A stretch of DNA of 40,953 bases from Escherichia phage vB_Ec_Tarrare, in the sequence record OQ507919.1. One strand, written 5' to 3'. The position numbers and the translations under genes were made by a program. Below the pieces are notes generated by a model that saw only the letters and a program-made list of their open reading frames with translations, ran no database searches and had not been told where the DNA came from. Below are positions 1 to 40,953 of the stretch, one piece after another. Within the stretch, counting starts at the first letter, position 1. Each line of letters starts with the position of its first letter.

Positions 1-102
1 ACCATTGACTTGCACGATAAGGCTGAGGAACTGGTCAACGACTACGTAGAAACGCTTGAGCAAGAAGGTCTGCTGGATAACGACGAAGAAGACGAGGAGT
101 GA
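1..102 (+). CDS. 0.3: gene 0.3-like anti-restriction protein (Ocr-type DNA mimic), 3' fragment; 5' part lies beyond the window edge
   Basis: Frame 1 is open from the window edge to TGA at 100-102. The translation TIDLHDKAEELVNDYVETLEQEGLLDNDEEDEE is a highly acidic tail resembling the C-terminus of T7 Ocr as I recall it, and sits directly upstream of the 0.7 kinase. Confidence 0.6.
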   Translation, partial: TIDLHDKAEELVNDYVETLEQEGLLDNDEEDEE

Positions 103-105
103 TAG

Positions 106-141
106 CCTCAAGGTCATCCTGATGGGTGGCCTTTATGATTA
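106..141 (+). promoter_or_regulatory. RNase III-type processing hairpin (R0.5-like)
   Basis: cctcaaggtcatcctgatgggtggcctttatgatta; the imperfect stem aaggtcatcc / ggtggcctt and the flanking ctcaagg ... cctttatgatta recur at seven other intergenic positions in the window. Confidence 0.5.
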
Positions 142-175
142 TCACTTAATACACTTTCTCAAAGGAATCATAAAG

Positions 176-1294
176 ATGAACCCAATGACCATCTCTGCTC
201 GTGTAGCCACCATCCAGAATCTGCCTATCTGTGAACTTGATAAGCGTCAAGGTCTTCTGGTAGCACTGGCGGCTGACATCGTGAACCACGAGACTGAGAA
301 CGGGAAACTAACGCAAGCCGAAGGTAACAACGCTCTCGAATCCATGCCATACTGGACAACTCTCAACGAGTACATGCGAGGCGCTGGATTCATTAAGCTG
401 GGTAACGGTCACTTCTCTGCTGCGTATCGTCACCACTTGTTGCCTCAGAAGGTCATCAAGGTTGGCTTTAAGAAAGAGGATTCAGGTGCAGCTTATGCGG
501 CCTTCTGCCGTATGCACCAAGGCAAGCAAGGCATCCCTACCATCCATGACATTCAACGTCACGCTGGCTGCTACACAGTGGTTCTTGATGAACTCGAAGC
601 ACTACCTCAGGACTATTGGGGTGATGTGGACGACAACCATGAAGTGTACGAACAGTTCGACATGGTGCGTGATGTAATCAACTACGAAGAATCACGAGAA
701 TGCTTTGGTAGTGAACTGATGGAAGACCTATACACTACCGCTAAGTCAATCCGCAAGTTCTTTGAGGGAATCGCTCGTTTCGATATGCACTCAGGTAACG
801 CGATGATGGATAAACACGGTAACTTGGTCATTACAGACCCTGTGTCTTTCAGCGCTGACGACGCACTACCTCAGGAAGACTTCATGGTAGACCCTGATGA
901 ACTCCTAAAGGAAATCGAACTGATCGCTGAGCGCCGCATGATTGAGCGCTGCAAGGCTCGCAAAGCTAAGCGTGACCCTAACGGTGAGTTCCGTAGAGGT
1001 CTGAAAGTACGCGCTAAGCGTAAGAAAGCGGCTGATAAGTGGGTTAAACATCTTGAGAATGAAATGCGTAAACGCCGCTTGGACGATAAGGCAGAACGTA
1101 GAGTCGAGAAGCGCGCTCGTCAGTGGTTCGGTACTTCAATTTGGCAAGCTCAGTGGCTGAATAACTTGGTAGGTGACTTCAAGGTTATCGAAGAACGCGC
1201 TGCGGCTGCGATGATGGTTCACGATGCGGTAGCTATCCAAGCTGGTCAAGCGCTGCATGTAGACAAAATTCTTGACGATATGTTCCAAGGCTGA
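176..1294 (+). CDS. 0.7: gene 0.7 protein kinase / host transcription shut-off protein
   Basis: 373 aa from the ATG at 176 (SD agga upstream; the ORF-track start at 56 is a TTG inside the upstream hairpin). MNPMTISARVATIQNLPICELDKRQG ... GFKKEDSGAAYAAFCRMHQG matches the T7 gp0.7 N-terminal kinase domain as recalled. Confidence 0.9.
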   Translation: MNPMTISARVATIQNLPICELDKRQGLLVALAADIVNHETENGKLTQAEGNNALESMPYWTTLNEYMRGAGFIKLGNGHFSAAYRHHLLPQKVIKVGFKKEDSGAAYAAFCRMHQGKQGIPTIHDIQRHAGCYTVVLDELEALPQDYWGDVDDNHEVYEQFDMVRDVINYEESRECFGSELMEDLYTTAKSIRKFFEGIARFDMHSGNAMMDKHGNLVITDPVSFSADDALPQEDFMVDPDELLKEIELIAERRMIERCKARKAKRDPNGEFRRGLKVRAKRKKAADKWVKHLENEMRKRRLDDKAERRVEKRARQWFGTSIWQAQWLNNLVGDFKVIEERAAAAMMVHDAVAIQAGQALHVDKILDDMFQG

Positions 1295-4028: not shown

Positions 4029-4051
4029 TAATACGACTCACTATTGAGGAG
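4029..4051 (+). promoter_or_regulatory. phage RNAP promoter (phi1.1A-like)
   Basis: taatacgactcactattgaggag; T7 -17 to -1 consensus except T at -1. Confidence 0.8.
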
Positions 4052-4055
4052 TGAT

Positions 4056-4078
4056 TAATACGACTCACTAATGGGAAA
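4056..4078 (+). promoter_or_regulatory. phage RNAP promoter (phi1.1B-like)
   Basis: taatacgactcactaatgggaaa, in tandem 27 bp downstream of the first promoter. Confidence 0.8.
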
Positions 4079-4176
4079 CCTTAAGGGTCTTAGAGATTTA
4101 ACTTTAAGACCTTTAAGTTCTAATTTAAGATTTAATTTAAGATTACTAAGAGATTAACTTTAAGGAGACTTTAAGT
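4079..4176 (+). other. AT-rich region downstream of tandem promoters; candidate primary replication origin and leader of gene 1.1
   Basis: About 100 bp of low-GC sequence with reiterated tttaag / aatttaag / aactttaag units immediately after phi1.1A/B. In T7 the primary origin occupies this position. Confidence 0.4.
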
Positions 4177-4314
4177 ATGCGTAATTTTGAGAAAACTACT
4201 CGTAGCAAAGCACGTAACTGGACTTACGAAGAAGTCTACGGTAACAAAGAAGGTCGCAAGTTTAACAAGACTAAGCGTGACCGTTCTCATAAACGCAATT
4301 GGGAGGCTCAATAA
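4177..4314 (+). CDS. 1.1: gene 1.1 small basic protein
   Basis: 45 aa, MRNFEKTTRSKARNWTYEEVYGNKEGRKFNKTKRDRSHKRNWEAQ; close match to T7 gp1.1 as recalled; SD aaggag upstream. Too short for the ORF track. Confidence 0.8.
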   Translation: MRNFEKTTRSKARNWTYEEVYGNKEGRKFNKTKRDRSHKRNWEAQ

Positions 4315-4571
4315 TGGGACGTCTATACAGTGGAAACCTAAACGCATTCAAAGGTGCTTGCAATCGTCTCTATCAGATGGACTTTGCGGTAATCGTCAAT
4401 GAGTTCCACGATGCAATGTACCGTCAAGAATGCATGAAGGTACGCATAGAAGACCGAGCAGGGAACATAATCATACAGGACACCTTCTGTCACTATGACG
4501 TAGACGTCTTGTACAACACAGCCACCGCTTGGTTGAACGGTATGGCTGACCAGTTACAACACTGGAAGTAA
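4314..4571 (+). CDS. 1.2: gene 1.2 protein (inhibitor of host dGTP triphosphohydrolase)
   Basis: 85 aa from the ATG at 4314, overlapping the 1.1 stop (taATGg). MGRLYSGNL...QLQHWK matches T7 gp1.2 in length and sequence. Confidence 0.85.
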   Translation: MGRLYSGNLNAFKGACNRLYQMDFAVIVNEFHDAMYRQECMKVRIEDRAGNIIIQDTFCHYDVDVLYNTATAWLNGMADQLQHWK

Positions 4572-4591
4572 TTGAACTCACTATCGGGAGA
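4569..4591 (+). promoter_or_regulatory. phage RNAP promoter, divergent (phi1.3-like)
   Basis: taattgaactcactatcgggaga; the only candidate with C rather than T at -1 and with a weak -12 to -10 region. Confidence 0.55.
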
Positions 4592-4594
4592 ATG

Positions 4595-4622
4595 CTTAAG
4601 GTCGCTCACTGAGTGGCCTTAG
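4595..4622 (+). promoter_or_regulatory. RNase III-type hairpin (R1.3-like)
   Basis: cttaaggtcgctcactgagtggccttag; stem aaggtcgctcac / gagtggcctt. Confidence 0.5.
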
Positions 4623-4651
4623 TCGTTTAACCCTAACAGGAGACAATCATT

Positions 4652-5671
4652 ATGACTATCAAGACTAACCCATTCAAAGCTGTGTCTTTCGTAGAATCTG
4701 CCGTTAAGAAGGCTCTGGACAACGCTGGGTATCTTATCGCTGACGTTAAGTATGATGGTGTACGCGGTAACATTCTGGTCGATAACGTTTCAAATGCGCG
4801 CTGGCTCTCTCGTGTTTCTAAACCGATTCCGGCACTATCGCACTTGGACGGGTTCGACTCCCGCTGGCAGCGCCTACTGCGTGATGACCGATGCTTCTAC
4901 CCCGATGGCTTTATGCTCGATGGCGAGCTAATGGTCAAGGGCGTGGACTTCAACACTGGCTCCGGCCTACTTCGCACGAAGAACGTTAAGAAGAAGAACG
5001 AGCTACACGCTATCTATCACGATGGCGAAATGACAGACAAACTGTTCCGTCTGAACTCTAAGTTCCTTAGTGTTCGACTCTACGCAATCCTACCGATTCA
5101 CATTGTGGAATCAGGTGAGGACTTCGACGTTATGACATGCCTCATGCAAGAACACGTTAAGTATATGCTGCCTCTGCTGCGGGAATACTTTCCTGAAATC
5201 GAATGGCAAGCGGCTGAGTCTTACGAAGTGTATGACATGGTAGAACTCACTAAGCTGTACGAGAAGAAACGCGAAGAAGGTCATGAAGGTCTTATCGTTA
5301 AAGACCCATTAGGTCACTACCGTCGAGGCAAGAAGTCCGGCTGGTGGAAAATGAAGCCTGAGAACGAGGCAGACGGTATCATTCAAGGTGTTGTGTGGGG
5401 TACTGAGGGTTTAGCTAATGAAGGCAAAGTGATTGGATTTGAAGTGCTTCTAGAGAGTGGTCGCGTAGTTAACGCTTGCAACATCTCACGCGCTTTAATG
5501 GACGAGTTCACTAGCACGGTTAATACCGCTGCGGCTAAACACGAGGATGCTCCTTACATTGGGTGGGCTTGTCAGATTAGCTACATGGAAGAGACACCTG
5601 ATGGCTCTCTGCGTCACCCTTCCTTCGTTATGTTCCGTGGAACCGAAGATAACCCTACCGAAAAGATGTAA
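4652..5671 (+). CDS. 1.3: ATP-dependent DNA ligase
   Basis: 339 aa; carries the adenylation motif ADVKYDGVRG (KxDG) and is collinear with T7 ligase. Confidence 0.95.
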   Translation: MTIKTNPFKAVSFVESAVKKALDNAGYLIADVKYDGVRGNILVDNVSNARWLSRVSKPIPALSHLDGFDSRWQRLLRDDRCFYPDGFMLDGELMVKGVDFNTGSGLLRTKNVKKKNELHAIYHDGEMTDKLFRLNSKFLSVRLYAILPIHIVESGEDFDVMTCLMQEHVKYMLPLLREYFPEIEWQAAESYEVYDMVELTKLYEKKREEGHEGLIVKDPLGHYRRGKKSGWWKMKPENEADGIIQGVVWGTEGLANEGKVIGFEVLLESGRVVNACNISRALMDEFTSTVNTAAAKHEDAPYIGWACQISYMEETPDGSLRHPSFVMFRGTEDNPTEKM

Positions 5672-5678
5672 TACCCAA

Positions 5679-5708
5679 TGGCTCACCGAAAGGTGGGCCT
5701 TTTGCGTT
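5679..5708 (+). terminator. early (host RNAP) terminator TE-like hairpin plus U-tract
   Basis: ggctcaccgaaaggtgggcc followed by ttttgcgttt, immediately after the ligase stop, which is the position of TE in T7. Confidence 0.6.
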
Positions 5709-5709
5709 T

Positions 5710-5732
5710 CAATTCAACTCACTAATGGAGGA
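5710..5732 (+). promoter_or_regulatory. class II-type phage RNAP promoter
   Basis: caattcaactcactaatggagga; shares the recurring core aactcactaatggagga, whose +1 to +6 ggagga also serves as SD for the ATG 4 nt downstream. Confidence 0.5.
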
Positions 5733-5736
5733 CATT

Positions 5737-5940
5737 ATGGACTTACTGAATCCAGCTAACCCGCTCAATATGGTAAACCCTGCGTCACCTTGGTATCACG
5801 TATGGAACTCTGTACCTGAGGAATCACACACAGTGGTTACTGAACTTACCGCTGGAGAATCTTTCATTATCTACGGTATCGTAGGAGTGTTCTGCCTGAT
5901 GATCGCAGGTCTACTCTGGCTGATGCTAAGCGATATTTAA
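5737..5940 (+). CDS. small hypothetical membrane protein (gene 1.4/1.5-region ORF)
   Basis: 67 aa from the ATG at 5737 (the ORF-track start at 5725 lies inside the promoter). The C-terminal stretch FIIYGIVGVFCLMIAGLLWLML is a predicted transmembrane helix. Confidence 0.6.
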   Translation: MDLLNPANPLNMVNPASPWYHVWNSVPEESHTVVTELTAGESFIIYGIVGVFCLMIAGLLWLMLSDI

Positions 5941-5960
5941 TTAAACTCACTAATGGAGGA
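5938..5960 (+). promoter_or_regulatory. class II-type phage RNAP promoter
   Basis: taattaaactcactaatggagga. Confidence 0.6.
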
Positions 5961-5964
5961 CACA

Positions 5965-6048
5965 ATGACTTTCCTGATTATCATCATCACGATCGCTACG
6001 ATCTTTGTGTGCCTTAGCGACGACAATCATCCCGATGGTCATGCTTAA
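5965..6048 (+). CDS. 1.5: gene 1.5-like micro-protein
   Basis: 27 aa, MTFLIIIITIATIFVCLSDDNHPDGHA; hydrophobic N-terminus and a ...SDD..PDGHA tail as in T7 gp1.5 as recalled. Not in the ORF track because under 60 aa. Confidence 0.6.
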   Translation: MTFLIIIITIATIFVCLSDDNHPDGHA

Positions 6049-6068
6049 TAGAACTCACTAATGGAGGA
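6046..6068 (+). promoter_or_regulatory. class II-type phage RNAP promoter
   Basis: taatagaactcactaatggagga. Confidence 0.6.
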
Positions 6069-6072
6069 CAAT

Positions 6073-6333
6073 ATGTTTCGCTTACATTTCAACAAAAGCA
6101 TTAAGATGTTCACAGTTCGCCGCCAAGACCGCTCAATTGTATGCGCGAGCGAACGTCGAGCTAAACTTCCTATTCTTGGTAGTACAATACCTTTGGCACC
6201 TAGCGTCCACATCATCATCACTCGTGGTGACTTTCAGAAAGCAATAGACAAACAACGTCCGGTTCTTAGTGTGGCAGTGACCCGCTTCCCGTTCGTCCGT
6301 CTGTTAATCGAAAGAATCAAGGAGGTGTTCTGA
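6073..6333 (+). CDS. 1.6: gene 1.6-like protein
   Basis: 86 aa from the ATG at 6073; the conserved block [41 protein letters not shown] matches T7 gp1.6 as recalled. Confidence 0.7.
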
Positions 6334-6740
6334 TGGGACTGTTAGATGGTGCAGCGTGGGAAAAAGAAAACCCACCACTAAAAGGAGGCCATACATTGGC
6401 TTGCGATATTAACCGCTTTAATGACGATAGATACCCTTGTACCTGTAACGCTAATTCTTTCAAGGTTAGTGGTAAGAAAGCTACTGTAATCGCTACCGAC
6501 GAAATCGAAGGTGTACAGAAGCCGAGTCACTACTCGTTCTTTGATGGTATCGAAGCTATCGAGATCATTGCGCGGTCTATGACTCGCGAACAGTTTAAAG
6601 GGTACGTATTTGGGAATATTTTGAAGTACCGCTTACGTGCTGGTAAGAAATCCGAATTGGCATACGCTGAGAAAGACTTAGCGAAAGCCAACTTCTACAG
6701 TGAACTCTTTGAGAAACACAAGGATAAATGTTATGCATAA
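6333..6740 (+). CDS. 1.7: gene 1.7 nucleotide kinase homologue (short form)
   Basis: 135 aa. The N-terminus [15 protein letters not shown] and the C-terminal half [71 protein letters not shown] match T7 gp1.7, but a central segment of about 60 residues present in T7 is absent. Confidence 0.8.
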
Positions 6741-6879
6741 CTTCAAGTCTACCCCACCTTCTGACCATCTATCTGATAACTTCACAACGTGCTCAGAGTG
6801 GTGCCGTAAGATGTGGGAAGAAACGTTTGACGATGCGTACATCAAGTTGTATGAACTTTGGAAATCAAGAGGGCAATAA
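6733..6879 (+). CDS. 1.8: gene 1.8 protein
   Basis: 48 aa, [48 protein letters not shown]; near-identical to T7 gp1.8 as recalled; overlaps the 1.7 stop. Confidence 0.8.
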
Positions 6880-11192: not shown

Positions 11193-11477
11193 ATGATGAC
11201 TCAAGGTAAAGTATCTACAACCATCCGTCTGTCTGATACTGCTGACCAGTGGAACCGCCGAGTTCACGTCAACGTTCGCAACTCAAAGGCAACTATGGTT
11301 TACCGTTGGAAATCTCCATGCAGTAAGAAAGACCATACTCAGCGCATGACTCTTACAGAAGTACAAGCTGCCCGTTTAGTGGCTGCATTGACGAAAGCTG
11401 TAGGCAAAGCTACAGAAGGCGACGTTGAACGCCGTAATGAGTACATGGCTGAGTTCTTTACAGCTATCAGTGAGTGA
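11193..11477 (+). CDS. 4.5: gene 4.5 protein
   Basis: 94 aa; SD aggag upstream; position matches T7 gene 4.5. Confidence 0.7.
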   Translation: MMTQGKVSTTIRLSDTADQWNRRVHVNVRNSKATMVYRWKSPCSKKDHTQRMTLTEVQAARLVAALTKAVGKATEGDVERRNEYMAEFFTAISE

Positions 11478-11480
11478 TAA

Positions 11481-11514
11481 ACTCAAGGTCGCCTACGGGT
11501 GGCCTTTATGATTA
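11481..11514 (+). promoter_or_regulatory. RNase III-type hairpin (R4.7-like)
   Basis: actcaaggtcgcctacgggtggcctttatgatta. Confidence 0.5.
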
Positions 11515-11537
11515 TTATTCATTATAGGAGAATAACT

Positions 11538-32303: not shown

Positions 32304-34229
32304 ATGGCTAACGTAATCAAGACCGTTTTGACTTATCAGCTAAATGGTACTACTCGTGATTTTAATATTCCGTTTGAGTATCTGGCTCGTAAGTTTGTTG
32401 TGGTCACACTGTTAGGTAAAGACCGTAAGGTACTTACTCTGAATACTGATTATCGATTTGCAACTCGTACTACCATCTCCACCACTAAGGCTTGGGGACA
32501 GGCAGATGGTTACACTCACATTGAGTTACGCCGAAACACCTCAGCGACTGAACGCTTGGTGGACTTTACTGACGGTTCGATTCTACGCGCGTATGACCTG
32601 AACGTTGCTCAGATTCAGACTATGCATATTGCAGAAGAAGCTCGTGACCTTACTGCTGATACTATCGGTGTCAACAACAATGGGGACTTAGATGCTCGAA
32701 ACCGTAAGATTGTAAACTTGGCAGACGCGGTTAACCCTCGTGATGCTGTCCCTCTAGGTCAGATTCAGGGGATAAACCAGAATGCTTGGCAAGCACGAAA
32801 TGAGGCTCAACAGTTCAGAAACCAAGCTGAGACCTTTAAGAACCAAGCCCAAGGTTTCCGTAACGAAGCAGAAGCGTTCCGAAACACTACTAACCAGAAC
32901 GCACAGACTACTACAGCCGATCGTGCAGCCGCTCTACAGTCAAAGGAAGAAGCTGAGCGCGCTCGTGCTGCTGCCCAACAGTCACAACAACAGGCTGCTG
33001 CATCTCAGACAGCCGCAAGTAACTCAGCCGCTGAGGCTAAGCGTGAAGCAGATCGCTCCAAAACAGAGGCTGATAGGGCTAAAGTAGAGGCCGATAAGTT
33101 AGGAAACTGGAACCAACTTGCAGGTACTGTGGATAACGTGACTGGTACTAGCGTGACCTTTAAGGACAAGGTAGGTGCTCTAGGTGGGTTCGTATCGGCT
33201 ACTCCTGATGGATACCGATTGAAGTACACTAACTTCTCTACGATTCTACGTCAAGACGCTAATGCGTTCTACATACTGACTACCAATAAGGGAGATGTTA
33301 ACGGGCCATTCAACTCGCTACGTCCTATGTACATTGACAACGCATCGGGATGGGTGACGTTTGGTAACGGTGCGGGTGTTAATGGTAGACTCACTACGAC
33401 AGAGGGTGTTGCGGTTCCTAACTCTAAGATGTACTTCAACAAGAGCCTGATTCAGTTGGAGAGCCAGAACTTCACAGACAGGGCGGTGAACATGCGAGTT
33501 TGGGGTAACGCCTCAGGTCGTAATAACGTGTGTGAATGGGGCGATGCTCACGGTTGGCTGATGTATGTACAGCGTAGGGATTGGAATGCTAACGCTGGGT
33601 CAAACATCCAGTTAAGTGTTAACGGACAGGTGGTGGCTAATAACATTATATCCACTGGAGGGGCTTACTTCCAGAATGGACATGCTGTAACGCTGGAATC
33701 TGCGTCCAATATGGCACACTACATCATCTCTAAGGATGGCGGCAGGAACAACTGGTACGTTGGTCGTGGGACTAATGGCAACAATGACGTCGCTCTCCAC
33801 TCTTATGTACACGGAACTACTCTTTCTCTACGCCAGAACTATGCGCAGGTCAACAAGCACTTCTATGTAGGCTCCGCTGTAGTAGCAACTGATGGTAACG
33901 TTCAGGGTACTAAATGGGGCGGTAAGTGGCTTGATGTGTTCCTGAATGATACATACATTAAGAAGACCAAAGCTTGGACTCAGGTATGGTCTGGAAGTGC
34001 TGGTGGTGGTGTCAGTGTGACCGTATCCCAAGACTTGCGATTCCGTAATATCTGGATTAAGTGCGCCAACAACTCTTGGAACCACTTCCGTACAGGCCCT
34101 GATGGTATTTACTTCATTGCGTCTGATGGTGGCTGGTTGCGATTCCAGATTCACTCCAACGGTAGAGGCTTCAAGAACATTGCAGACAGTCGCTCTGTTC
34201 CTCAGGCTATCATGGTGGAGAACGAATAA
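32304..34229 (+). CDS. 17: tail fibre protein
   Basis: 641 aa; N-terminal tail-attachment domain (MANVIKTVLTYQLNGTTRDFNIPFEYLARKFVVVTL) and C-terminal tip (...WIKCANNSWNHFRTGPDGIYFIASDGGWLRFQIHSNGRGFKNIADSRSVPQAIMVENE) match T7 gp17; the central part differs and is longer. Confidence 0.95.
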   Translation: MANVIKTVLTYQLNGTTRDFNIPFEYLARKFVVVTLLGKDRKVLTLNTDYRFATRTTISTTKAWGQADGYTHIELRRNTSATERLVDFTDGSILRAYDLNVAQIQTMHIAEEARDLTADTIGVNNNGDLDARNRKIVNLADAVNPRDAVPLGQIQGINQNAWQARNEAQQFRNQAETFKNQAQGFRNEAEAFRNTTNQNAQTTTADRAAALQSKEEAERARAAAQQSQQQAAASQTAASNSAAEAKREADRSKTEADRAKVEADKLGNWNQLAGTVDNVTGTSVTFKDKVGALGGFVSATPDGYRLKYTNFSTILRQDANAFYILTTNKGDVNGPFNSLRPMYIDNASGWVTFGNGAGVNGRLTTTEGVAVPNSKMYFNKSLIQLESQNFTDRAVNMRVWGNASGRNNVCEWGDAHGWLMYVQRRDWNANAGSNIQLSVNGQVVANNIISTGGAYFQNGHAVTLESASNMAHYIISKDGGRNNWYVGRGTNGNNDVALHSYVHGTTLSLRQNYAQVNKHFYVGSAVVATDGNVQGTKWGGKWLDVFLNDTYIKKTKAWTQVWSGSAGGGVSVTVSQDLRFRNIWIKCANNSWNHFRTGPDGIYFIASDGGWLRFQIHSNGRGFKNIADSRSVPQAIMVENE

Positions 34230-34286
34230 TAACTTAACACTCAAGGAAAGACGTGTAGTCCACGGATGGACTCTCAAGGAGGTATC

Positions 34287-34499
34287 ATGCTATCTTTAGA
34301 CTTCAACAACGAACTCGTCAAGGCCGCTCCTATTGTGGGGACTGGTGTTGCCGATGTGACAACCAGATTGTTCTTTGGGCTGTCACTTAATGAGTGGTTC
34401 TACGTAGCCGCTATCGCCTACACAGTGGTTCAAATTGGTGCCAAGGTAGTCGATAAGATTATTGATTGGAAGAAGGCAACGAAGGAGATTGGAGAATGA
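34287..34499 (+). CDS. 17.5: holin (class II, gene 17.5)
   Basis: 70 aa from the ATG at 34287 (SD aaggagg); MLSLDFNNELVKAAPIVGTGVADVTTRLFFGLSLNEWFYVAAIAYTVVQIGAKVV matches T7 gp17.5. Confidence 0.9.
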   Translation: MLSLDFNNELVKAAPIVGTGVADVTTRLFFGLSLNEWFYVAAIAYTVVQIGAKVVDKIIDWKKATKEIGE

Positions 34500-34762
34500 G
34501 TGACAAGTCTTTAATCAAATTCCTAGAAATGTTGGATACAGAGATGGCTCAGCGAATGCTCATGGATTTACAGAATGACGAGCGCCGGACACCTCAACTG
34601 TACAACGCTATAGGTAAACTACTGGAACGCCATAAGTTCCAAATAGGTAAACTGACTCCTGATGAGAACATCTTGGGCGGTCTTGCTGCTGGTCTTGAAG
34701 ACTACAATAAGACGGTCGGAAAGGATGGCCTGATGGATGACGATATTTACACATTGCAGTGA
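34496..34762 (+). CDS. 18: terminase small subunit (DNA maturase A)
   Basis: 88 aa from the ATG at 34496, MSDKSLIKFLEMLDTEMAQRM...DDDIYTLQ; matches T7 gp18. Confidence 0.9.
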   Translation: MSDKSLIKFLEMLDTEMAQRMLMDLQNDERRTPQLYNAIGKLLERHKFQIGKLTPDENILGGLAAGLEDYNKTVGKDGLMDDDIYTLQ

Positions 34763-34764
34763 TA

Positions 34765-34799
34765 TACTCAAGGCCACTACAGCCAGTGGTCTTTATGGA
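34765..34799 (+). promoter_or_regulatory. RNase III-type hairpin (R18.5-like)
   Basis: tactcaaggccactacagccagtggtctttatgga. Confidence 0.5.
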
Positions 34800-34857
34800 T
34801 GTCATTGTCTACGCGATGGTGCATCTACGCGAAATCTGAGAAATGATGGGAGGATTT

Positions 34858-35298
34858 ATGTTACGGTTTTTACGTAGGCTCATCCCTTGGGTTGTCGCTG
34901 GGGCGCTATTCGGGTATGGATGGCACCTTGGGGCTGACTCTATGGATGCCAAATGGAAACAGGAGGTATACAATGAATACGTTAAGAAAACGGAAGCTAG
35001 AGCAACTACTCAGAAAGAGGTCGATGCGATTAGCAAGCGCTACCAAGAGGAGATTGCCTCTCTGGAGGGCAGCACTGATAGGATGCTTGATGACTTGCGT
35101 AACGATAATAAGCGGTTGCGCGTCAGAGTCAAGAATCTTAGTGCCACCTCAGGAGGTCTCTGTGGACGCGAGTCTGATGGTAGAGCCGAACTTGACGAGC
35201 GAGATGCTAAGCGTATTCTCGCAGTGACCCAAAAGGGAGACGCTTGGATTAAAGCTCTCCAAGACACCATACGTAAATTACAACAGAAGGAGAATTAA
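34858..35298 (+). CDS. 18.5: Rz-like i-spanin (inner-membrane spanin component)
   Basis: 146 aa from the ATG at 34858 (SD gggagg); N-terminal transmembrane helix LIPWVVAGALFGYGW and periplasmic coiled coil; matches T7 gp18.5. Confidence 0.9.
   Translation: MLRFLRRLIPWVVAGALFGYGWHLGADSMDAKWKQEVYNEYVKKTEARATTQKEVDAISKRYQEEIASLEGSTDRMLDDLRNDNKRLRVRVKNLSATSGGLCGRESDGRAELDERDAKRILAVTQKGDAWIKALQDTIRKLQQKEN
34973..35227 (+). CDS. 18.7: Rz1-like o-spanin lipoprotein, embedded in the +1 frame of 18.5
   Basis: 84 aa from the ATG at 34973 (SD aggagg); lipobox TIISGC and Pro-rich mature part; matches T7 gp18.7. Confidence 0.8.
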   Translation: MNTLRKRKLEQLLRKRSMRLASATKRRLPLWRAALIGCLMTCVTIISGCASESRILVPPQEVSVDASLMVEPNLTSEMLSVFSQ

Positions 35299-35299
35299 T

Positions 35300-36139
35300 A
35301 TGGCCCTACACGAAGTCAACCTGTGGAATTTCAATTCCCGCACACATTCGTCTCTCGACGTTGGAGCGCCTTACGGTGGCCTCTACTCTGGACGCATAGA
35401 CTTACCTGAAAGTTACCGAAAGTCTAAGATGTTCAAGGTTAGAGTTTCTGGAACACACGCTCTAGAGACCTACGCTAGCTATTCTGCTATGCTTACAGGA
35501 ATCGGAGGAACGTCGGTGTCAAACCTAAATGGTAGAGAAGCGATCATTGAGTTTAACACATCGTCCTCAACAAACGGGTTGCGAGGCATCTACTCCGTAG
35601 AGGGCGTGTTTGTTAGGGATTGGCATCCAGACGAAGCGTTGACAAAAGGTGCCGCCGAGATGTTCATAAAGCCGCATGGTGTAGACGAGTACGTTTGGAC
35701 TGGTTCTCAGTCTGTAGGTAACGGCTCAGAGTTAAACCTATTGTCCCTAAACGGGTTCTCTACCGATGTTGCCACTGGAGCCACTACCATTAACGCTGCG
35801 TCTCTTGTGGTGCTTCCTGCGGAGGTGAAGAGTAGAGGGCTGATCATTTCTGTAATCCTAGATGGCACTTATGACCAACAAGGGCCACATGAGATGAAGG
35901 TTCAGATACGAAGCGCTGATGGTAAGACGTTGCAACAATCTAGCCCATTGTATGTTCTGGACAAGAACGTCAAGAAGCTTACCGCAACATTTGCAGACTA
36001 CACCCTTGGTGTGTATGACGAAAGTAGTACCACTGGATTTAAGCTTGTATTTATCAATGATAGTACATCCAATATGTCACTGACTGGTGTACGAATCGTT
36101 GTTCAAAATATCTCTAATCCAGACTTCACACGTTCTTAA
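35300..36139 (+). CDS. hypothetical protein, no T7 counterpart (first gene of a two-gene late-region insertion)
   Basis: 279 aa ORF; SD aaggag 7 nt upstream of the ATG, which sits 1 nt after the Rz stop. Rich in S/T/G/N/V and apparently beta-rich; no signal peptide, transmembrane helix or catalytic motif recognised by eye. Confidence 0.8.
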   Translation: MALHEVNLWNFNSRTHSSLDVGAPYGGLYSGRIDLPESYRKSKMFKVRVSGTHALETYASYSAMLTGIGGTSVSNLNGREAIIEFNTSSSTNGLRGIYSVEGVFVRDWHPDEALTKGAAEMFIKPHGVDEYVWTGSQSVGNGSELNLLSLNGFSTDVATGATTINAASLVVLPAEVKSRGLIISVILDGTYDQQGPHEMKVQIRSADGKTLQQSSPLYVLDKNVKKLTATFADYTLGVYDESSTTGFKLVFINDSTSNMSLTGVRIVVQNISNPDFTRS

Positions 36140-36154
36140 AGAAGGAGAGTTAAA

Positions 36155-37267
36155 ATGTTAGTTACTCGAACGGCAACTTACACCGATTGGATATTCATGG
36201 CTGCTCACGCAAACGAGAGGGTCGATGACATTGGTCAAGGTCTCTTAGAGGGTCATATTTATTTCCGTTATGCCTATGACATGCTGAACGATGGTGACGA
36301 GGTAGTACGAGAGGTATCACATGTACATCTTAGCGATGGGTCAACATACCCTCTAGGAGAAGGAGTGTCCTCCGAAAAGATAGACATCACGTACCACGGT
36401 CTCACTAGTGATGGTAGCGTATACCTTGAGGTTAATGGACATAAGGGAATTGGTGTTAGTAGCATTACTCGTACCCTGACCATTCAATATGACGATGGGA
36501 AGGTTCCTGTTCTGGACACTGACCAACTCAAAGGGATTCTTTCAGAACTTCATGACAGCCTTGAGGCTAGTATGATTAATACCGCAAACGCTGTCAAAGA
36601 GGAACTGCGAGACGAGTTGGAAACCAAGGTGCTGGACGCCAAGGAGTCCTGCAACGAGGCTACCGAGGCTGTTAACACCGAGTTGACCGCCAAGATCGCA
36701 AATGAGAGTGGTCGCATTGATAGCCTAACGAGTACCCTTGTGACTGTTCAGGGTAACTTGGATACTACCATGAAGCGCGTTGGTAAAATCTCTCCCAATA
36801 TGGGTAAGTGGTCTTTCGGTCGATACACCATCAACTCGAAGCAGACCAACAACTTACTGGCTGCTGCGCCTACAGCGTTGGCGCCGGAAGGGTCTATCTT
36901 CACATATGATGATACCAACAAGGTCTTTAAGATGTCTGGAGGTGCTGCCCCAACAGACAGGATTCTGCGGGTTACGTTCACTACAGGGATTGACACGTTG
37001 AGTGCTGACTACCGAGGATACTTATCGTTCATGCTGCGAAACTCCAGTGGTGGAGTCTTGGCTAGCGACATGAGGTTCCTAAACATGGATGCTGGTCTTA
37101 CCCAACAACTGAGCGCCATACAGTTCAGCCTTGAGCTATACTTAGAGGCGTCTAAAGGTCATCCAGTATACAACTCAGGTATCCAGTTAGCTTTCCACAA
37201 CAGTGCTAACACGGCTCTTGCCATACTGTCCGGTGGTGTTGCAAGCTTCACCTTACTGACAGCTTAA
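36155..37267 (+). CDS. hypothetical protein with central coiled-coil segment, no T7 counterpart (second gene of the insertion)
   Basis: 370 aa ORF; SD aaggag 8 nt upstream. Residues ~121-210 (DTDQLKGILSELHDSLEASMINTANAVKEELRDELETKVLDAKESCNEATEAVNTELTAKIANESGRIDSLTSTL) look alpha-helical with a heptad-like pattern, flanked by beta-rich N- and C-terminal regions. Confidence 0.8.
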   Translation: MLVTRTATYTDWIFMAAHANERVDDIGQGLLEGHIYFRYAYDMLNDGDEVVREVSHVHLSDGSTYPLGEGVSSEKIDITYHGLTSDGSVYLEVNGHKGIGVSSITRTLTIQYDDGKVPVLDTDQLKGILSELHDSLEASMINTANAVKEELRDELETKVLDAKESCNEATEAVNTELTAKIANESGRIDSLTSTLVTVQGNLDTTMKRVGKISPNMGKWSFGRYTINSKQTNNLLAAAPTALAPEGSIFTYDDTNKVFKMSGGAAPTDRILRVTFTTGIDTLSADYRGYLSFMLRNSSGGVLASDMRFLNMDAGLTQQLSAIQFSLELYLEASKGHPVYNSGIQLAFHNSANTALAILSGGVASFTLLTA

Positions 37268-37288
37268 TTTAAATAAAGGAGGGACGCT

Positions 37289-39052
37289 ATGTCTTATACC
37301 CAAAGTAACCGCAATGCTCTCATTGTGGCTCAACTAAAGGGTGACTTCGTAGCGTTCCTATTCGTCTTATGGAAGGCGTTAAACCTTCCGGTTCCTACCC
37401 GTTGTCAGATTGACATGGCTAAGGTATTGGCGAATGGGGACAACAAGAAGTTTATCCTACAGGCTTTCCGTGGTATCGGTAAGTCATTCATCACTTGTGC
37501 GTTCGTTGTGTGGACGTTATGGCGTGATCCTCAGATGAAGATACTCATTGTGTCTGCCTCTAAGGAACGTGCTGACGCTAACTCCATCTTCATCAAGAAC
37601 ATCATTGATTTGCTGCCTTTCCTTGCTGAGTTGAAACCTCGCGCTGGTCAACGTGACTCTGTGATTAGTTTTGACGTAGGCCCTGCTAAGCCTGACCATT
37701 CTCCTAGTGTGAAGTCCGTAGGTATCACTGGTCAGTTGACTGGTAGCCGTGCTGACATCATCATTGCGGATGACGTTGAGATTCCGTCTAACAGTTCCAC
37801 TATGGGCGCTCGTGAGAAGCTCTGGACTCTCGTTCAGGAATTTGCTGCATTGTTGAAACCTCTGGAGACCTCTCGTGTTATCTACCTTGGTACGCCTCAG
37901 ACAGAGATGACTCTCTATAAGGAACTTGAGGACAACCGTGGTTACACTACGATTATCTGGCCCGCTCTTTATCCACGCTCTAAGGAGGAAGACTTGTACT
38001 ACAGCAACCGTCTGGCTCCTATGCTCCGTGAAGAGTACAATGAGAATCCAGAAGGTCTTGCAGGTACTCCTACTGACCCTGTACGATTCGATACTGACGA
38101 TCTTCGTGAGCGTGAGTTGGAATACGGTAAGGCTGGCTTCACTTTGCAGTTCATGCTTAACCCTAACCTTAGTGATGCCGAGAAGTACCCTCTGAGGCTC
38201 CGTGACGCGATCGTAGCGGCTCTGGACTTAGAGAAGGCCCCAATGCATTACCAATGGCTCCCGAACCGTCAGAACATTATTGAGGACTTACCTAACGTTG
38301 GTCTTAAGGGTGATGATCTACATACGTATCATGAGTGCTCCAGTAACTCTGGTCAGTACCAACAGAAGATACTTGTGGTTGACCCTAGTGGTCGCGGTAA
38401 GGACGAAACAGGTTACGCCGTGTTGTACACTCTGAACGGCTACATCTACCTAATGGAAGCTGGTGGTTTCCGTGAAGGTTACTCCGATAAGACCCTTGAG
38501 GCTCTCGCTAGGAAAGCCAAACAGTGGAAGGTTCAAACGGTTGTCTACGAGAGTAACTTCGGTGACGGTATGTTTGGTAAGGTGTTTAGTCCTATCCTTC
38601 TTAAACATCATAATTGCATCATGGAAGAGATTCGTGCTCGTGGTATGAAGGAAGTACGTATTTGTGATACCTTAGAGCCTGTCATGCAGACTCACCGCTT
38701 GGTTATCCGAGATGAGGTCATTAGGGCAGACTATCAGACTGCTCGTGATGCTGACGGTAAACATGATGTCAAATACTCGCTGTTCTACCAGATGACTCGC
38801 ATCACTCGTGAGAAAGGTGCTCTTGCTCATGATGACCGATTGGATGCCTTAGCGTTAGGCGTAGAGTTCCTACGTGAGTCCATGCAACTGGATAGCGTCA
38901 AGGTTGAAGGTGAGGTGCTTGCAGACTTCCTTGAAGATCACATGAGTCGTCCAACTATTGGCGCTCAGAGTATCATTGAGATGTCTTTAGGTGGTATCGA
39001 CTTGTACGCAGAGGATGAAGGCTGGGGTAACTCTCAGTTCATCGAATGGTGA
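37289..39052 (+). CDS. 19: terminase large subunit (DNA maturase B)
   Basis: 587 aa; ATPase and nuclease regions; collinear with T7 gp19. Confidence 0.97.
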
Positions 39053-39075
39053 CTTATGCATAGATAGTGCATAAG
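39053..39075 (+). repeat. perfect inverted repeat immediately after the terminase stop
   Basis: cttatgca-tagatag-tgcataag; 8-bp arms, 7-nt loop. Confidence 0.7.
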
Positions 39076-39133
39076 GATTCACTTTAGGCCACGGAAGGCC
39101 AATACCCTAAGTTGTTGAATAGACACGATAAAT

Positions 39134-39156
39134 TAATACGACTCACTATTGGGAGA
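39134..39156 (+). promoter_or_regulatory. phage RNAP promoter (phiOR-like)
   Basis: taatacgactcactattgggaga, between genes 19 and 19.5. Confidence 0.9.
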
Positions 39157-39298
39157 GGAGGGACTAAAGGTTACATATAGTGTACTGAATGCATAAACAT
39201 AAAGTGCATAAAGTATGCATACCTAATACCCTTAGAGGATGGTTGTTATATTGATATTAATACAACCTTAACTTAAGGAACAACATAAGGAGGCCATA

Positions 39299-39448
39299 AT
39301 GTTCCGCACAGTGTTGAACCTATTGCGGCATAGAGTGACCTACCGCTTTCTTCTGGTACTTGTTGCTGCCCTTGGGTTCTCATCTCTTACTACAGACCTC
39401 AGTACACTGGAGTCTACCGTTTGTTCTGTATTCACTTGTGTCGATTAA
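39299..39448 (+). CDS. 19.5: gene 19.5 protein
   Basis: 49 aa, MFRTVLNLLRHRVTYRFLLVLVAALGFSSLTTDLSTLESTVCSVFTCVD; near-identical to T7 gp19.5 as recalled; SD aaggagg. Too short for the ORF track. Confidence 0.8.
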   Translation: MFRTVLNLLRHRVTYRFLLVLVAALGFSSLTTDLSTLESTVCSVFTCVD

Positions 39449-39519
39449 GATAATGATCGAACGCTAAGCTCACCGAGGGATTCGAAGGTATGATTACATC
39501 ACACCATCTCATCCCTATA

Positions 39520-40010
39520 GAGTCAAGTCCTAAGGTTATACCTATAGGCCCTCTAATGGTCTATCCTAAGGTCTATACCTAAGGGTAGGCCATACCTATT
39601 GGCTACCTAGAGATAAGCCTAAGGAGGCTCCTAGAGAGGCCCTAAGGAGTCCTTTAAAATATACCATAAAAATCTGAGTGACTATCTCATAGTTTAAACA
39701 TTTGGATTTACCCCCATAGGGTCACTTCAAGTCCCATAAAGACATCCCCATCCTAAGGTTTCTACTCAAAGAGAGACCATAGGAGACCTTGAGAGACCAT
39801 AAAGAGGTGGGTAGTGTGGTACTTTGAGTTATCTATAAGTGTGTCTCTATGTGTTCCTATCTGTTATCACTCCTAAGGTATCCTCTTAAGGTCATATCCT
39901 AAGGTCATCTCTTAAGGTATCAACATAAGGAGGAGGAGACTACACTTAAAGTATATACATAAAGACCACATAAAGACCATACATAAAGTGTATACATAAA
40001 GATGCCTTGT
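39520..40010 (+). repeat. genome-end non-coding region with arrays of short direct repeats (cctaaggt / ccataaag / cataaagac units)
   Basis: No ORF of 60 aa or more; reiterated heptamer-like units such as tcctaaggt (at least 6 copies) and cataaaga (4 copies at 39950-40000), corresponding to the CCTAAAG / CATAAAGAC arrays inside and next to the T7 terminal repeat. Confidence 0.6.
39685..39877 (+). repeat. approximate single-copy terminal repeat / concatemer junction (physical genome ends)
   Basis: tctcatagt ... acccccataggg ... gtgtctctatgtgttcctatctgttatcactcctaagg parallels the T7 terminal repeat (TCTCACAGTGT...CCCCCATAGGGGG...GTCTCTCTGTGTCCCTATCTGTTACAGTCTCCTAAAG) as recalled. Boundaries are inferred. 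Confidence 0.3.
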
Positions 40011-40048
40011 AGTTAGCTATAGAGAGTTATCTCTAATCATGGTCTTAT

Positions 40049-40071
40049 TAATACAACTCACTATTGGGAGA
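40049..40071 (+). promoter_or_regulatory. phage RNAP promoter (phiOL-like)
   Basis: taatacaactcactattgggaga (A for G at -11), in the same relative place as T7 phiOL. Confidence 0.75.
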
Positions 40072-40104
40072 TACTCTATAGACTACTTAAAGAGGAGGGT
40101 TATC

Positions 40105-40548
40105 ATGTATCAAGGATTAACTATATCAAATGGTGTCTTAATAAGGGAGTCAACAGGTAAACCTTGTAAGACATTCTCTAACGGTAAATACCTAAGGATA
40201 AACCATAAAGGCCGGATGTATTACCTACACCGTGTCTTGTGGGAACTTACACACGGCTCAATACCTAAGGGTTACACTATAGACCATATAGACGGTAATC
40301 CTACAAATAACAATATTGACAACCTAAGGTTAGCCTCTTATAGTGAGAACAACATGAATCGGGTATCTACGGTAGACAATGGCCTACCTCAAGGTATCTA
40401 CTGGTGTAACTCTAAGAGTCGCTATGTGGCTCAGGTGGTAGCTCAAGGCGTTAAGAGAACAAAGACCTCAAAGAGCCTTGATGTAGTCACTGAGTGGGTT
40501 AAAGAGACACGAAAAGAGATTCATAAAGAATTTGCCATTAAGTGTTGA
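40105..40548 (+). CDS. HNH-AP2 homing endonuclease-like protein in the left-end leader
   Basis: 147 aa from the ATG at 40105 (SD aggagg); YTIDHIDGNPTNNNIDNLRLASYSENNMN is the HNH motif, with an AP2-like C-terminal half; paralogous in type to gene 3.8. T7 has no gene between phiOL and the A promoters as far as I recall. Confidence 0.8.
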   Translation: MYQGLTISNGVLIRESTGKPCKTFSNGKYLRINHKGRMYYLHRVLWELTHGSIPKGYTIDHIDGNPTNNNIDNLRLASYSENNMNRVSTVDNGLPQGIYWCNSKSRYVAQVVAQGVKRTKTSKSLDVVTEWVKETRKEIHKEFAIKC

Positions 40549-40573
40549 CAAGACGATTAAGTTAATACATAAT
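40545..40573 (+). promoter_or_regulatory. candidate host sigma70 early promoter
   Basis: TTGACA (40545-40550), 17 nt spacer, CATAAT (40568-40573). Confidence 0.4.
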
Positions 40574-40686
40574 GACAACCGTCAACGAGACGAGAGGTCT
40601 CCGAGAGTGACAAGACTACGAGTTATCACTTCGCCCTCATAAAGTCTCCAAGTAGCCACCTAGAAGGCATACGAAAATAACTAGGG

Positions 40687-40716
40687 TTGACAAGGTAACA
40701 CGAAGTAAGATAGAAT
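40687..40716 (+). promoter_or_regulatory. candidate host sigma70 early promoter (A-type)
   Basis: TTGACA (40687-40692), 18 nt spacer, TAGAAT (40711-40716); resembles the T7 A2/A3 promoters (TTGACA...GTAAGATA). Confidence 0.5.
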
Positions 40717-40837
40717 ACACCACAACAGCGAACGGGACGCTATACTCTCGGGTTCAGGACGGAGAGCCTTGTGTGGCTTGATGAAGTGGACATAGCGAAG
40801 GCACTAAACACCCAACGCTAAACACTTTGAATGATAA

Positions 40838-40873
40838 ACTCAAGGTCATCCTGATGGGTGGCCTTTATGATTA
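40838..40873 (+). promoter_or_regulatory. RNase III-type hairpin upstream of gene 0.3 (R0.3-like)
   Basis: actcaaggtcatcctgatgggtggcctttatgatta; 35 nt identical to the site at 107-141. Confidence 0.5.
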
Positions 40874-40902
40874 CCACTCATTAACTGATGAGGATATACA
40901 CT

Positions 40903-40953
40903 ATGGAACGCAACGCTAACGCTTACTACGAACTTCTGGATTCTGCGGTATAC
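40903..40953 (+). CDS. 0.3: gene 0.3-like protein, 5' fragment (continues beyond the window end)
   Basis: ATG at 40903 with SD gagga 9 nt upstream, open to the window edge (MERNANAYYELLDSAVY); first ORF after the early promoters and R0.3 hairpin, as for T7 0.3. Confidence 0.5.
   Translation, partial: MERNANAYYELLDSAVY

What the first reader, a model, noticed from the sequence alone, without database searches (positions are those of the whole stretch)
39685..39877. The window is a circular permutation crossing the concatemer junction; gene 0.3 is split across the window edges
Right-end features (gene 19.5, repeat arrays) are followed directly by left-end features (terminal-repeat-like sequence, phiOL, host promoters, R0.3, gene 0.3 start) with one copy of the terminal-repeat-like segment. 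The 0.3 fragments at the two window edges (17 and 33 codons) do not add up to an Ocr-sized protein of ~117 aa, so about 200 bp lies outside the window. The physical genome ends should therefore map inside this window near 39.7-39.9 kb, not at its edges.
Basis: partly seen in the sequence, partly recalled or inferred. Interest (0 to 1): 0.3.

Follow-up and report, generated by a model that had tools for sequence, protein, structure and literature searches.

The report
Permuted T7-like record with gap
The window is a whole deposited T7-like phage genome written in a rotated order, so the true DNA ends lie inside it (about 39685 and 39858) and its edges cut the anti-restriction gene ocr, with about 231 bases of that gene absent; this is an ordinary assembly matter, not new biology.

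Summary
Window 39011-40074 is colinear with the T7 right end, then one terminal repeat (TR), then the T7 left end. Both TR boundaries carry the motifs found at the annotated T7 and T3 repeats. That places a single-copy 174-bp TR at 39685-39858, not 39685-39877.

The right edge (40903-40953) holds 17 codons of an Ocr N-terminus. The left edge (1-102) holds 33 codons plus the stop of an Ocr C-terminus. The closest relative, a Logan contig (L016, protein P0035, 125 aa), carries both pieces in one continuous gene. Its DNA aligns to the very last and very first window bases, and 231 bp (77 codons) between them have no counterpart here.

One point is new. The window is the entire GenBank record of Escherichia phage vB_Ec_Tarrare (40,953 bp). 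No parent contig exists, so the roughly 231 bp are missing from the deposit itself.

The most likely cause is a TR-collapsed, circularly permuted short-read assembly that broke inside ocr. A real in-frame ocr deletion is an unlikely rival. Interest is low. The practical consequences are a wrongly oriented record, a missing TR copy, and a truncated, probably unannotated ocr.

The parts
37289..39052 (+). gene 19, terminase large subunit (last large right-end gene)
   Evidence: Exact match to WEU68292.1 'terminase large subunit [Escherichia phage vB_Ec_Tarrare]'; about 81% nt identity to T7 gene 19.
39134..39156 (+). phage RNA polymerase promoter at the phiOR position
   Evidence: Exact copy of the window's promoter consensus TAATACGACTCACTATTGGGAGA; aligns with the T7 phiOR region.
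39299..39448 (+). gene 19.5 (49 aa)
   Evidence: Exact match to WEU68293.1 TARRARE_47, DUF5465; lies under the T7 gene 19.5 match.
39553..39649 (+). right-end short-repeat arrays (CCTAAGG-type), counterpart of the T7 arrays before the right TR
   Evidence: TRF arrays at 39553-39584 and 39618-39649. Eight of the 16 CCTAAGG sites in the window lie within 39529-39904 and three more within 40191-40329. Colinear with T7.
39685..39858 (+). predicted direct terminal repeat (174 bp), single collapsed copy; predicted left genome end = 39685, right genome end = 39858
   Evidence: The start motif ...AAAAATCTGAGTGACTA|TCTCATAGT and the end motif ...TCTCTATGTGTTCCT|ATCTGTTA match the boundaries of the T7 160-bp TR and the T3 231-bp annotated repeat, and three Logan relatives. 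Only a self-hit in the window.
39865..40002 (+). left-end short-repeat arrays (TATCCTCCTAAGG x4.3; ATACATAAAGACC x3.8)
   Evidence: TRF; colinear with the T7 left-end arrays.
40049..40071 (+). phiOL-type phage promoter (TAATACAACTCACTATTGGGAGA)
   Evidence: 1 mismatch to the consensus, the same G-to-A change as in T7 phiOL; aligns with T7 position 405.
40105..40548 (+). HNH_3 endonuclease gene inserted in the left-end control region (not part of the T7 layout)
   Evidence: PF13392; 37% identical to T7 gp3.8; absent at this place in T7 and in L009, L015 and L010.
40545..40573 (+). sigma70-like early promoter (TTGACA-17-CATAAT)
   Evidence: 11/12 consensus match; at the position of the T7 A promoters.
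40687..40716 (+). sigma70-like early promoter (TTGACA-18-TAGAAT)
   Evidence: 11/12 consensus match; conserved in L009, L015, L010 and L016.
40829..40880 (+). RNase III-type hairpin at the R0.3 position, containing the 35-bp repeat 40839-40873
   Evidence: Fold z = -3.35; matches the T7 R0.5 region and the T3 R0.3 position; repeat found.
40903..40953 (+). 5' fragment of ocr (gene 0.3): 17 codons, runs off the end of the record
   Evidence: MERNANAYYELL is identical to the Ocr N-termini of K30, Kc166A and L015; 16/17 to P0035; DNA 50/51 identical to L016 679-729.
1..102 (+). 3' fragment of ocr: 33 codons plus stop, starts at the first base of the record
   Evidence: Aligns to T7 Ocr residues 91-103 (pairwise E = 0.004); 24/25 identical to P0035 over the first 25 residues; DNA 92.6% to L016 961-1103.
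97..147 (+). RNase III-type hairpin at the R0.5 position, containing the 35-bp repeat 107-141
   Evidence: Fold -24.8 kcal/mol, z = -3.98; 86.5% to the T7 R0.5 region.
176..1294 (+). gene 0.7 protein kinase (first complete gene of the record)
   Evidence: 74% nt identity to an annotated serine/threonine kinase of Yersinia phage Rambo; the homologue in L016 carries PF27024 Phage_T7_kinase.

Best explanation
The window is the complete GenBank record of Escherichia phage vB_Ec_Tarrare, a T7-like phage (Studiervirinae) whose virion DNA should be linear with a direct terminal repeat. The two TR copies were merged into one during assembly. This gave a circular-looking sequence identical in order to one unit of the replicative concatemer: right end, one TR, left end. 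The sequence was deposited starting and ending where the contig happened to break, which is inside ocr (gene 0.3). About 231 bp (77 codons) of the ocr core lie between the record's last and first base and were never deposited. By homology the mature genome runs from 39685 through 40953, then the missing roughly 231 bp, then 1 through 39858. That gives a genome of about 41.36 kb with a 174-bp TR at each end. Shown here: the colinearity, the single TR copy, the boundary motifs, the identity of both ocr fragments, and the 231-bp gap relative to the closest relative. Inferred: that the virion ends are exactly at 39685 and 39858, that the phage really carries the ocr core, and why the contig broke. 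The break may reflect sequence shared with other phages or variants in the same library.
For: Exact protein look-ups identify the window as the 40,953-bp Tarrare record. Window 39011-40074 aligns as one block with T7 right end + TR + left end. In T7 the 160-bp TR is identical at both ends of V01146, and T3 annotates a 231-bp repeat at both ends. The sequences on both sides of both boundaries are conserved in the window and in three related Logan contigs. The TR is present once and the record ends share no overlap. The ocr N-fragment is identical to known Ocr N-termini. Both fragments are contiguous parts of P0035 (125 aa, PF08684). L016 aligns up to window base 40953 and resumes at window base 1, leaving L016 730-960 (231 bp) unmatched. 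All relatives found have a full ocr of 108-125 aa or longer. Independent Logan contigs of relatives (L009, L015) also run terminase, 19.5, one TR, ocr, which shows that TR collapse is routine. Many GenBank T7-like records place gene 19 at arbitrary coordinates, so permuted deposits are common. The literature states that DTRs of T7-like phages are often deleted in short-read and hybrid assemblies (PMC10438801). Coincidence argument: if the circle were complete with a real deletion, an arbitrary start would fall exactly on the deletion joint with a chance of about 1 in 41,000, whereas a contig break explains the position automatically.
Against: No read-level data could be examined, so neither the missing 231 bp nor the termini are directly seen for this phage. 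No full-length Tarrare Ocr exists in the 15-billion-protein collection, although run SRR25747514 contains Tarrare-identical contigs. This may only reflect an apparent contig-length cut-off, since the ocr unit would be a unitig of about 477 bp between the two 35-bp repeats. The two fragments join in frame to give a 50-codon ORF, as a real in-frame deletion would, although that happens by chance one time in three. The reason the assembly broke exactly there is unknown.
Confidence: 0.85

Rival explanations
1. The phage stock contains genomes with a real in-frame 231-bp internal deletion of ocr, leaving a 50-aa remnant. The stock would be either pure, or mixed with wild type so that the two forms made a branch in the assembly graph and the long contig ended at the two deletion endpoints.
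For: The fragments join in frame, and the gap in the closest relative is a multiple of three, 231 bp. Logan contigs of SRR25747514 that are 100% identical to the window break at 829, 6741, 32964 and 39133/39156, none of which is a repeat of 31 bases or more in the window. That run therefore holds variants or related sequence, which is compatible with a mixed population. T7 early-region deletions are well known from the classical literature (my own knowledge).
Against: A pure deletion requires the arbitrary start of a circular assembly to coincide with the joint, about 1 chance in 41,000. No microhomology is seen at the endpoints when judged on L016 (TATAC|GCTATG ... AACTG|ACCATT), although T7 deletions typically use short direct repeats. 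The obvious recombination substrate, the 35-bp repeat flanking ocr, would remove the whole gene rather than its core. The 50-aa product is not in the protein collection. It fails Pfam ocr completely and lacks the conserved core.
Confidence: 0.07
2. The two edge fragments are unrelated small ORFs, or pieces of two different genes, and nothing is missing. The record would then be a complete circle whose start happens to lie between them.
For: Neither the joined 50-aa sequence nor the 33-aa fragment reaches any Pfam family. The 33-aa fragment alone finds nothing by tblastn in 50,697 phage records. The first homology search with the joined 50 aa gave no hit.
Against: P0035 and P0099 each contain both fragments in one Ocr protein (PF08684) with 77 residues between them. 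The L016 DNA alignment stops and restarts exactly at the record's ends. PHROG 2568 'ocr-like anti-restriction' matches the joined sequence in two stretches. The position between an R0.3-type and an R0.5-type hairpin, upstream of gene 0.7, is that of ocr.
Confidence: 0.02
3. The genome ends of this phage are not at the T7-homologous positions. It might have a different TR length or a different packaging mode, so the internal 'junction' would not mark the physical termini.
For: Only one TR copy is in the record, so its length cannot be read from the sequence. TR length varies among relatives: 160 bp in T7, 231 bp in T3, and 162-186 bp by motif in L015, L010 and L009.
Against: Both boundary motifs and their flanks are conserved with T7 and T3, whose repeats are annotated at both ends of the records. 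The 32 bases preceding the TR start are identical to T7. The terminase is T7-type (PF22530 in the relatives; about 81% nt identity to T7 gene 19).
Confidence: 0.06

Closest known systems
Bacteriophage T7 concatemer junction and 160-bp direct terminal repeat (V01146 / NC_001604)
   Same: Same order of elements: gene 19, phiOR, gene 19.5, short-repeat arrays, TR, short-repeat arrays, phiOL, host promoters, RNase III site, ocr. The 32 bp before the TR start are identical, and the TR end motif GTGTCTCT.TGTGT.CCT|ATCTGTTA is conserved.
   Different: The TR is 174 bp rather than 160 bp, and its interior is diverged with indels. An HNH endonuclease gene lies between phiOL and the host promoters. Two rather than three clear A-type promoters lie downstream of it. 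There are no genes 0.4-0.6. The phage promoter has T at -1.
Bacteriophage T3 231-bp redundant terminal repeat (NC_003298)
   Same: The left end begins TCTCATAGTT, exactly as in the window. The right boundary ...TCTCTATGTGTCCCT|ATCTGTTA is nearly identical.
   Different: The T3 repeat is 57 bp longer, and T3 gene 0.3 encodes a SAM-hydrolase type protein rather than Ocr (annotation).
Ocr (gene 0.3 DNA mimic, Pfam PF08684), closest member P0035 from Logan contig SRR12179530_681 (L016)
   Same: The N-terminus is 16/17 identical and the C-terminal helix plus acidic tail 24/25 identical over the first 25 residues. The flanking RNase III-type hairpins and the downstream kinase are the same.
   Different: The record lacks the 77-codon core (VPHYY...ILQARIYEQL). 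The joined remnant fails the Pfam model.
TR-collapsed, arbitrarily started assemblies of T7-like phages (e.g. Logan contigs L009 and L015; GenBank records with gene 19 at arbitrary coordinates; HYPPA paper PMC10438801)
   Same: A single TR copy lies inside the contig, with right-end genes followed directly by left-end genes.
   Different: Those contigs carry a complete ocr. The Tarrare record additionally lacks about 231 bp at its break point.

Membership tests
T7-type direct terminal repeat / concatemer junction (Studiervirinae) | Right-end genes (19, 19.5) and left-end control region (phiOL, host promoters, gene 0.3) joined through one repeat-length segment, colinear with T7 | tested here: met
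   One colinear blastn block, window 39011-40074 against T7 right end + TR + left end; base-level alignment.
T7-type direct terminal repeat / concatemer junction (Studiervirinae) | Conserved sequence at both repeat boundaries (…CTGAGTGACTA|TCTCAYAGT and …TGTGTYCCT|ATCTGTTA) | tested here: met
   Window compared with T7, T3 and three relatives; the T3 repeat is annotated at both ends of its record.
T7-type direct terminal repeat / concatemer junction (Studiervirinae) | The same sequence physically present at both ends of virion DNA (two copies per genome) | not testable with these tools
   The record holds one copy only. Reads or virion DNA are needed.
T7-type direct terminal repeat / concatemer junction (Studiervirinae) | Short-repeat arrays on both sides of the repeat, and phage promoters phiOR upstream and phiOL downstream | tested here: met
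   TRF arrays, clustering of CCTAAGG sites, promoters at 39134 and 40049.
Ocr, DNA-mimic anti-restriction protein (PF08684) | N-terminal segment homologous to Ocr | tested here: met
   12/12 identical to the K30, Kc166A and L015 Ocr; 16/17 to P0035.
Ocr, DNA-mimic anti-restriction protein (PF08684) | C-terminal helix and acidic tail homologous to Ocr, followed by an R0.5-type hairpin | tested here: met
   T7 Ocr residues 91-103, pairwise E = 0.004; 24/25 to P0035; hairpin.
Ocr, DNA-mimic anti-restriction protein (PF08684) | Sequence as present in the record reaches the Pfam gathering score / contains the conserved core | tested here: not met
   The joined 50 aa matches no Pfam family and only weakly matches PHROG 2568 (E = 0.0029). 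The 77-codon core is absent from the record. The record therefore holds fragments of an ocr gene, not a complete member.
Complete circular-style assembly (nothing missing) | Ends of the record overlap or abut without loss when compared with relatives | tested here: not met
   No terminal overlap; 231-bp discontinuity against L016 exactly at the ends.

The most novel reading that the evidence does not exclude
The Tarrare stock carries a natural in-frame deletion of the Ocr core, either alone or alongside wild type. The remnant would be a 50-aa 'mini-Ocr' made of the first helix fused to the last helix and acidic tail, and the deletion/wild-type mixture is what broke the assembly.
Probability: 0.06. 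Interest if true: 0.3.

Novelty: new member of a known kind. Interest (0 to 1): 0.1.

Why it matters
The value is mainly curatorial. The public record of this phage starts mid-gene and lacks one TR copy (174 bp) and about 231 bp of ocr. Its length (40,953 bp, against an expected 41.36 kb or so), gene count and anti-restriction repertoire are therefore misreported. Automated comparisons may score the phage as lacking ocr. Anyone engineering or packaging this genome needs the true ends, predicted at 39685 and 39858. The finding raises no new biological principle.

Tried and rejected
- An exact 51-mer from the window end found nothing in IMG/VR, so no parent contig turned up there.
- The closest IMG/VR relatives of the kinase are only 46-52% identical and were not useful.
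- The first homology search, with the two fragments simply joined, found nothing. A hybrid query that borrowed a relative's core was needed to find P0035.
- Pfam on the fragments gave no hit.
- tblastn with the C-terminal fragment alone gave no match.
- Attempts to reach the ocr-containing Logan contig of SRR25747514 failed. The full kinase, a guessed partial kinase product and the 50-aa joined ORF are not on record. The ocr unitig would probably be under 500 bp, and no Logan or ENA contig shorter than 515 bp appears among the 120 hits. This absence therefore says nothing either way.
- Paper searches for 'Tarrare' and for 'SRR25747514' found no description of the phage or its sequencing.
- Rfam found no family in the window.
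- I considered whether the 35-bp repeat flanking ocr could explain the break. I rejected this because a break at that repeat would fall outside the gene, not at codons 17 and 95.

Full report
**What the window is**

Exact look-ups of four proteins translated from the window (RNA polymerase, terminase, tail fibre, major capsid) and of gene 19.5 returned NCBI proteins of Escherichia phage vB_Ec_Tarrare. The accessions are WEU68248.1, WEU68292.1, WEU68286.1, WEU68278.1 and WEU68293.1 (TARRARE_47), each on a contig of 40,953 bp, which is exactly the window length. The window is therefore the whole deposited record. There is no larger parent contig to inspect. The phage is absent from the 'phages' collection used here. 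Its nearest relatives there are T7-like phages at about 81% identity over gene 19/19.5 and less over the early region.

**Checking the junction**

I built a T7 'concatemer junction' from V01146: right end with its TR, followed by the left end after the TR. The 160-bp TR is identical at both ends of that record.
- Window 39011-40074 aligns to this construct as a single colinear block of 1136 columns at 73.6% identity.
- The base-level alignment runs through the end of gene 19, phiOR, gene 19.5, the right-end repeat arrays, the TR, the left-end arrays and phiOL.
- The phage promoter consensus in this genome is TAATACGACTCACTATTGGGAGA. It has six exact copies, including 39134-39156 at the phiOR position. 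The copy at 40049-40071 carries the same G-to-A change that marks T7 phiOL.
- Tandem arrays lie on both sides of the TR: 39553-39649, 39865-39930 and 39943-40002. Eight of the 16 CCTAAGG sites in the window lie within 39529-39904, and three more lie within 40191-40329.

**Locating the terminal repeat**

- In T7 the right TR copy is preceded by ...AAAAATCTGAGTGACTA and begins TCTCACAGT.
- In T3, whose 231-bp repeat is annotated at both ends of the record, the corresponding sequence is ...AAAAATCTGAATGGGTA|TCTCATAGTT.
- The window reads ...AAAAATCTGAGTGACTA|TCTCATAGTT, with the bar between 39684 and 39685.
- At the other boundary, T7 has ...GTGTCTCTCTGTGTCCCT|ATCTGTTA and T3 has ...TCTCTATGTGTCCCT|ATCTGTTA.
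- The window has ...GTGTCTCTATGTGTTCCT|ATCTGTTA, with the bar between 39858 and 39859.
- Three related Logan contigs that also cross the junction (L009, L010, L015) show the same two motifs, 162-186 bp apart.

The predicted TR is therefore 39685-39858 (174 bp). The segment occurs once in the window. The only repeat of 31 bases or more in the whole window is a 35-mer elsewhere.

**The window edges**

The last 51 bases (40903-40953) translate to MERNANAYYELLDSAVY. The first 102 bases translate to TIDLHDKAEELVNDYVETLEQEGLLDNDEEDEE followed by a stop.
- The first twelve residues of the N-fragment are identical to the N-termini of annotated Ocr proteins of phages K30 and Kc166A, and of the Logan relative L015.
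- The C-fragment aligns to T7 Ocr residues 91-103 and ends in an acidic tail, as Ocr does (pairwise E = 0.004). On its own this evidence is weak. The fragments reach no Pfam family, match PHROG 2568 'ocr-like anti-restriction' only at E = 0.0029, and the C-fragment finds nothing by tblastn.

**The decisive relative**

A search with a hybrid query (the two fragments around a relative's core) found 475 Ocr-family proteins. The second best, P0035 (125 aa, PF08684), contains both window fragments in one continuous protein. It is 16/17 identical at the N-terminus and 24/25 over the first 25 C-terminal residues, with 77 residues between them. P0099 has the same architecture, also with 77 residues between.

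The contig encoding P0035 (L016, Logan SRR12179530_681) aligns to the window as follows:
- L016 452-729 matches window 40684-40953, stopping at the last window base.
- L016 961-1103 matches window 1-149, starting at the first window base.
- L016 730-960 (231 bp) is left without a counterpart.

The two fragments are thus parts of one ocr gene, and the record lacks its 77-codon core. All relatives examined carry a full-length ocr.

**How the record most likely arose**

This part is inference. T7-like virion DNA is linear with a direct terminal repeat, and replication produces concatemers with one repeat copy per junction (established knowledge for T7). In short-read assembly the two TR copies collapse, the graph closes into a circle, and the contig is written out from wherever it breaks.
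- This is routine. Logan contigs of relatives (L009, L015) run terminase, 19.5, one TR, ocr, kinase.
- Many GenBank T7-like records place gene 19 at arbitrary coordinates.
- The HYPPA paper states that DTRs of such phages are often deleted in short-read and hybrid assemblies (PMC10438801).

Here the break fell inside ocr and the stretch between the two contig ends was not recovered. The record ends show no overlap.

If nothing were missing, an arbitrary start point would have to coincide with a deletion joint, a chance of about 1 in 41,000. A contig break explains the position without any coincidence.

Restoring 231 bp gives a unit of 41,184 bp. With a second TR copy the mature genome would be about 41,358 bp.

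**Why it broke there is not established**

Run SRR25747514 contains contigs 100% identical to the window: L003 = 39133-40868, L004 = 829-6741 and L019 = 32964-39156.
- L003 ends exactly at the 35-bp repeat, as expected for k = 31.
- The other breakpoints are not repeats within the window.

That run therefore also holds related sequence or variants. A similar mixture in the submitters' library could have created a branch inside the conserved ocr core. This is a suggestion only. I could not reach an ocr-containing contig of that run. The collection also seems to hold no Logan or ENA contigs under about 500 bp, so the absence is uninformative.

**Rival explanations**

- A real in-frame deletion of the ocr core cannot be excluded without reads. 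The join is in frame, which has a chance of one in three. As a pure population it needs the coincidence above. As a mixture with wild type it would produce the observed contig ends. It shows no microhomology at the endpoints when judged on L016. I give it about 6-7%.
- That the fragments are unrelated ORFs is refuted.
- That the physical ends lie elsewhere is unlikely, given conservation of both boundaries with phages whose repeats are annotated. It remains untested.

**Comparison with what is known, and verdict**

This is a T7-type direct terminal repeat and concatemer-junction region in a newly sequenced member of the group, seen through a permuted and slightly incomplete assembly.
- All sequence-testable defining features of the T7-type junction are met.
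- The defining physical feature, two repeat copies at the virion ends, cannot be tested here.
- The ocr gene is recognisable from both ends, but as deposited it is not a complete family member.

The finding is correct, ordinary and of curatorial value only. I score interest at 0.1.

Noticed in passing
window 40105-40548 (+): An HNH_3 endonuclease gene (147 aa, PF13392, 37% identical to T7 gp3.8) sits directly downstream of phiOL, in the normally gene-free left-end control region. Its stop codon overlaps the -35 box of the first sigma70-like promoter. T7, T3 and the relatives L009, L010 and L015 have no gene there (266 bp in L009 against 610 bp here). It looks like a homing-endonuclease insertion that may have displaced one A-type promoter.
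   Followed up: partly
window 107-141 and 40839-40873 (third, diverged copy 11471-11521): A 35-bp perfect direct repeat forms the cores of the RNase III-type hairpins before and after ocr. It is the only repeat of 31 bases or more in the genome. In relative L016 the two hairpins have different upper stems, so in Tarrare they appear to have been homogenised. Recombination between them would excise the whole ocr gene.
   Followed up: partly
window 100-176: There are no genes 0.4, 0.5 or 0.6. The ocr stop (100-102) is followed by the hairpin and then directly by the gene 0.7 kinase start at 176. L016 has a 56-aa ORF in this interval, and L009 and L015 have a gp0.4 homologue.
   Followed up: no
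window 15801, 19093, 20137, 24493, 32227, 39134 (exact); 40049 (1 mismatch); 4056 (2 mismatches): The phage promoter consensus is TAATACGACTCACTATTGGGAGA, with T at -1 where T7 has A. Only 8 sites lie within 3 mismatches, fewer than the 17 promoters of T7, so other promoters may be more diverged.
   Followed up: no
L003, L004, L019 (Logan SRR25747514) = window 39133-40868, 829-6741, 32964-39156: Contigs 100% identical to the window break at positions that are not repeats within this genome (829, 6741, 32964, 39133/39156). L019 and L003 overlap by 24 bp across the promoter instead of the expected 30. This suggests that the run contains further related phages or variants.
   Followed up: partly
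window 40316-40344 (+): A sigma70-like site with 11 of 12 consensus matches (TTGACA-17-TATAGT) lies inside the HNH gene. It may be a chance match or a remnant or relocated early promoter.
   Followed up: no
window 40903-40953 and 1-102 compared with L016, L015 and T7: The ocr allele is mosaic. Its N-terminus is of the K30/Przondovirus type (MERNANAYYELL), while its C-terminus is T7-like (TIDL...). Its coding DNA is much closer to L016 (50/51 and about 93%) than the upstream flank is (about 84%). This suggests exchange of the gene as a module.
   Followed up: partly
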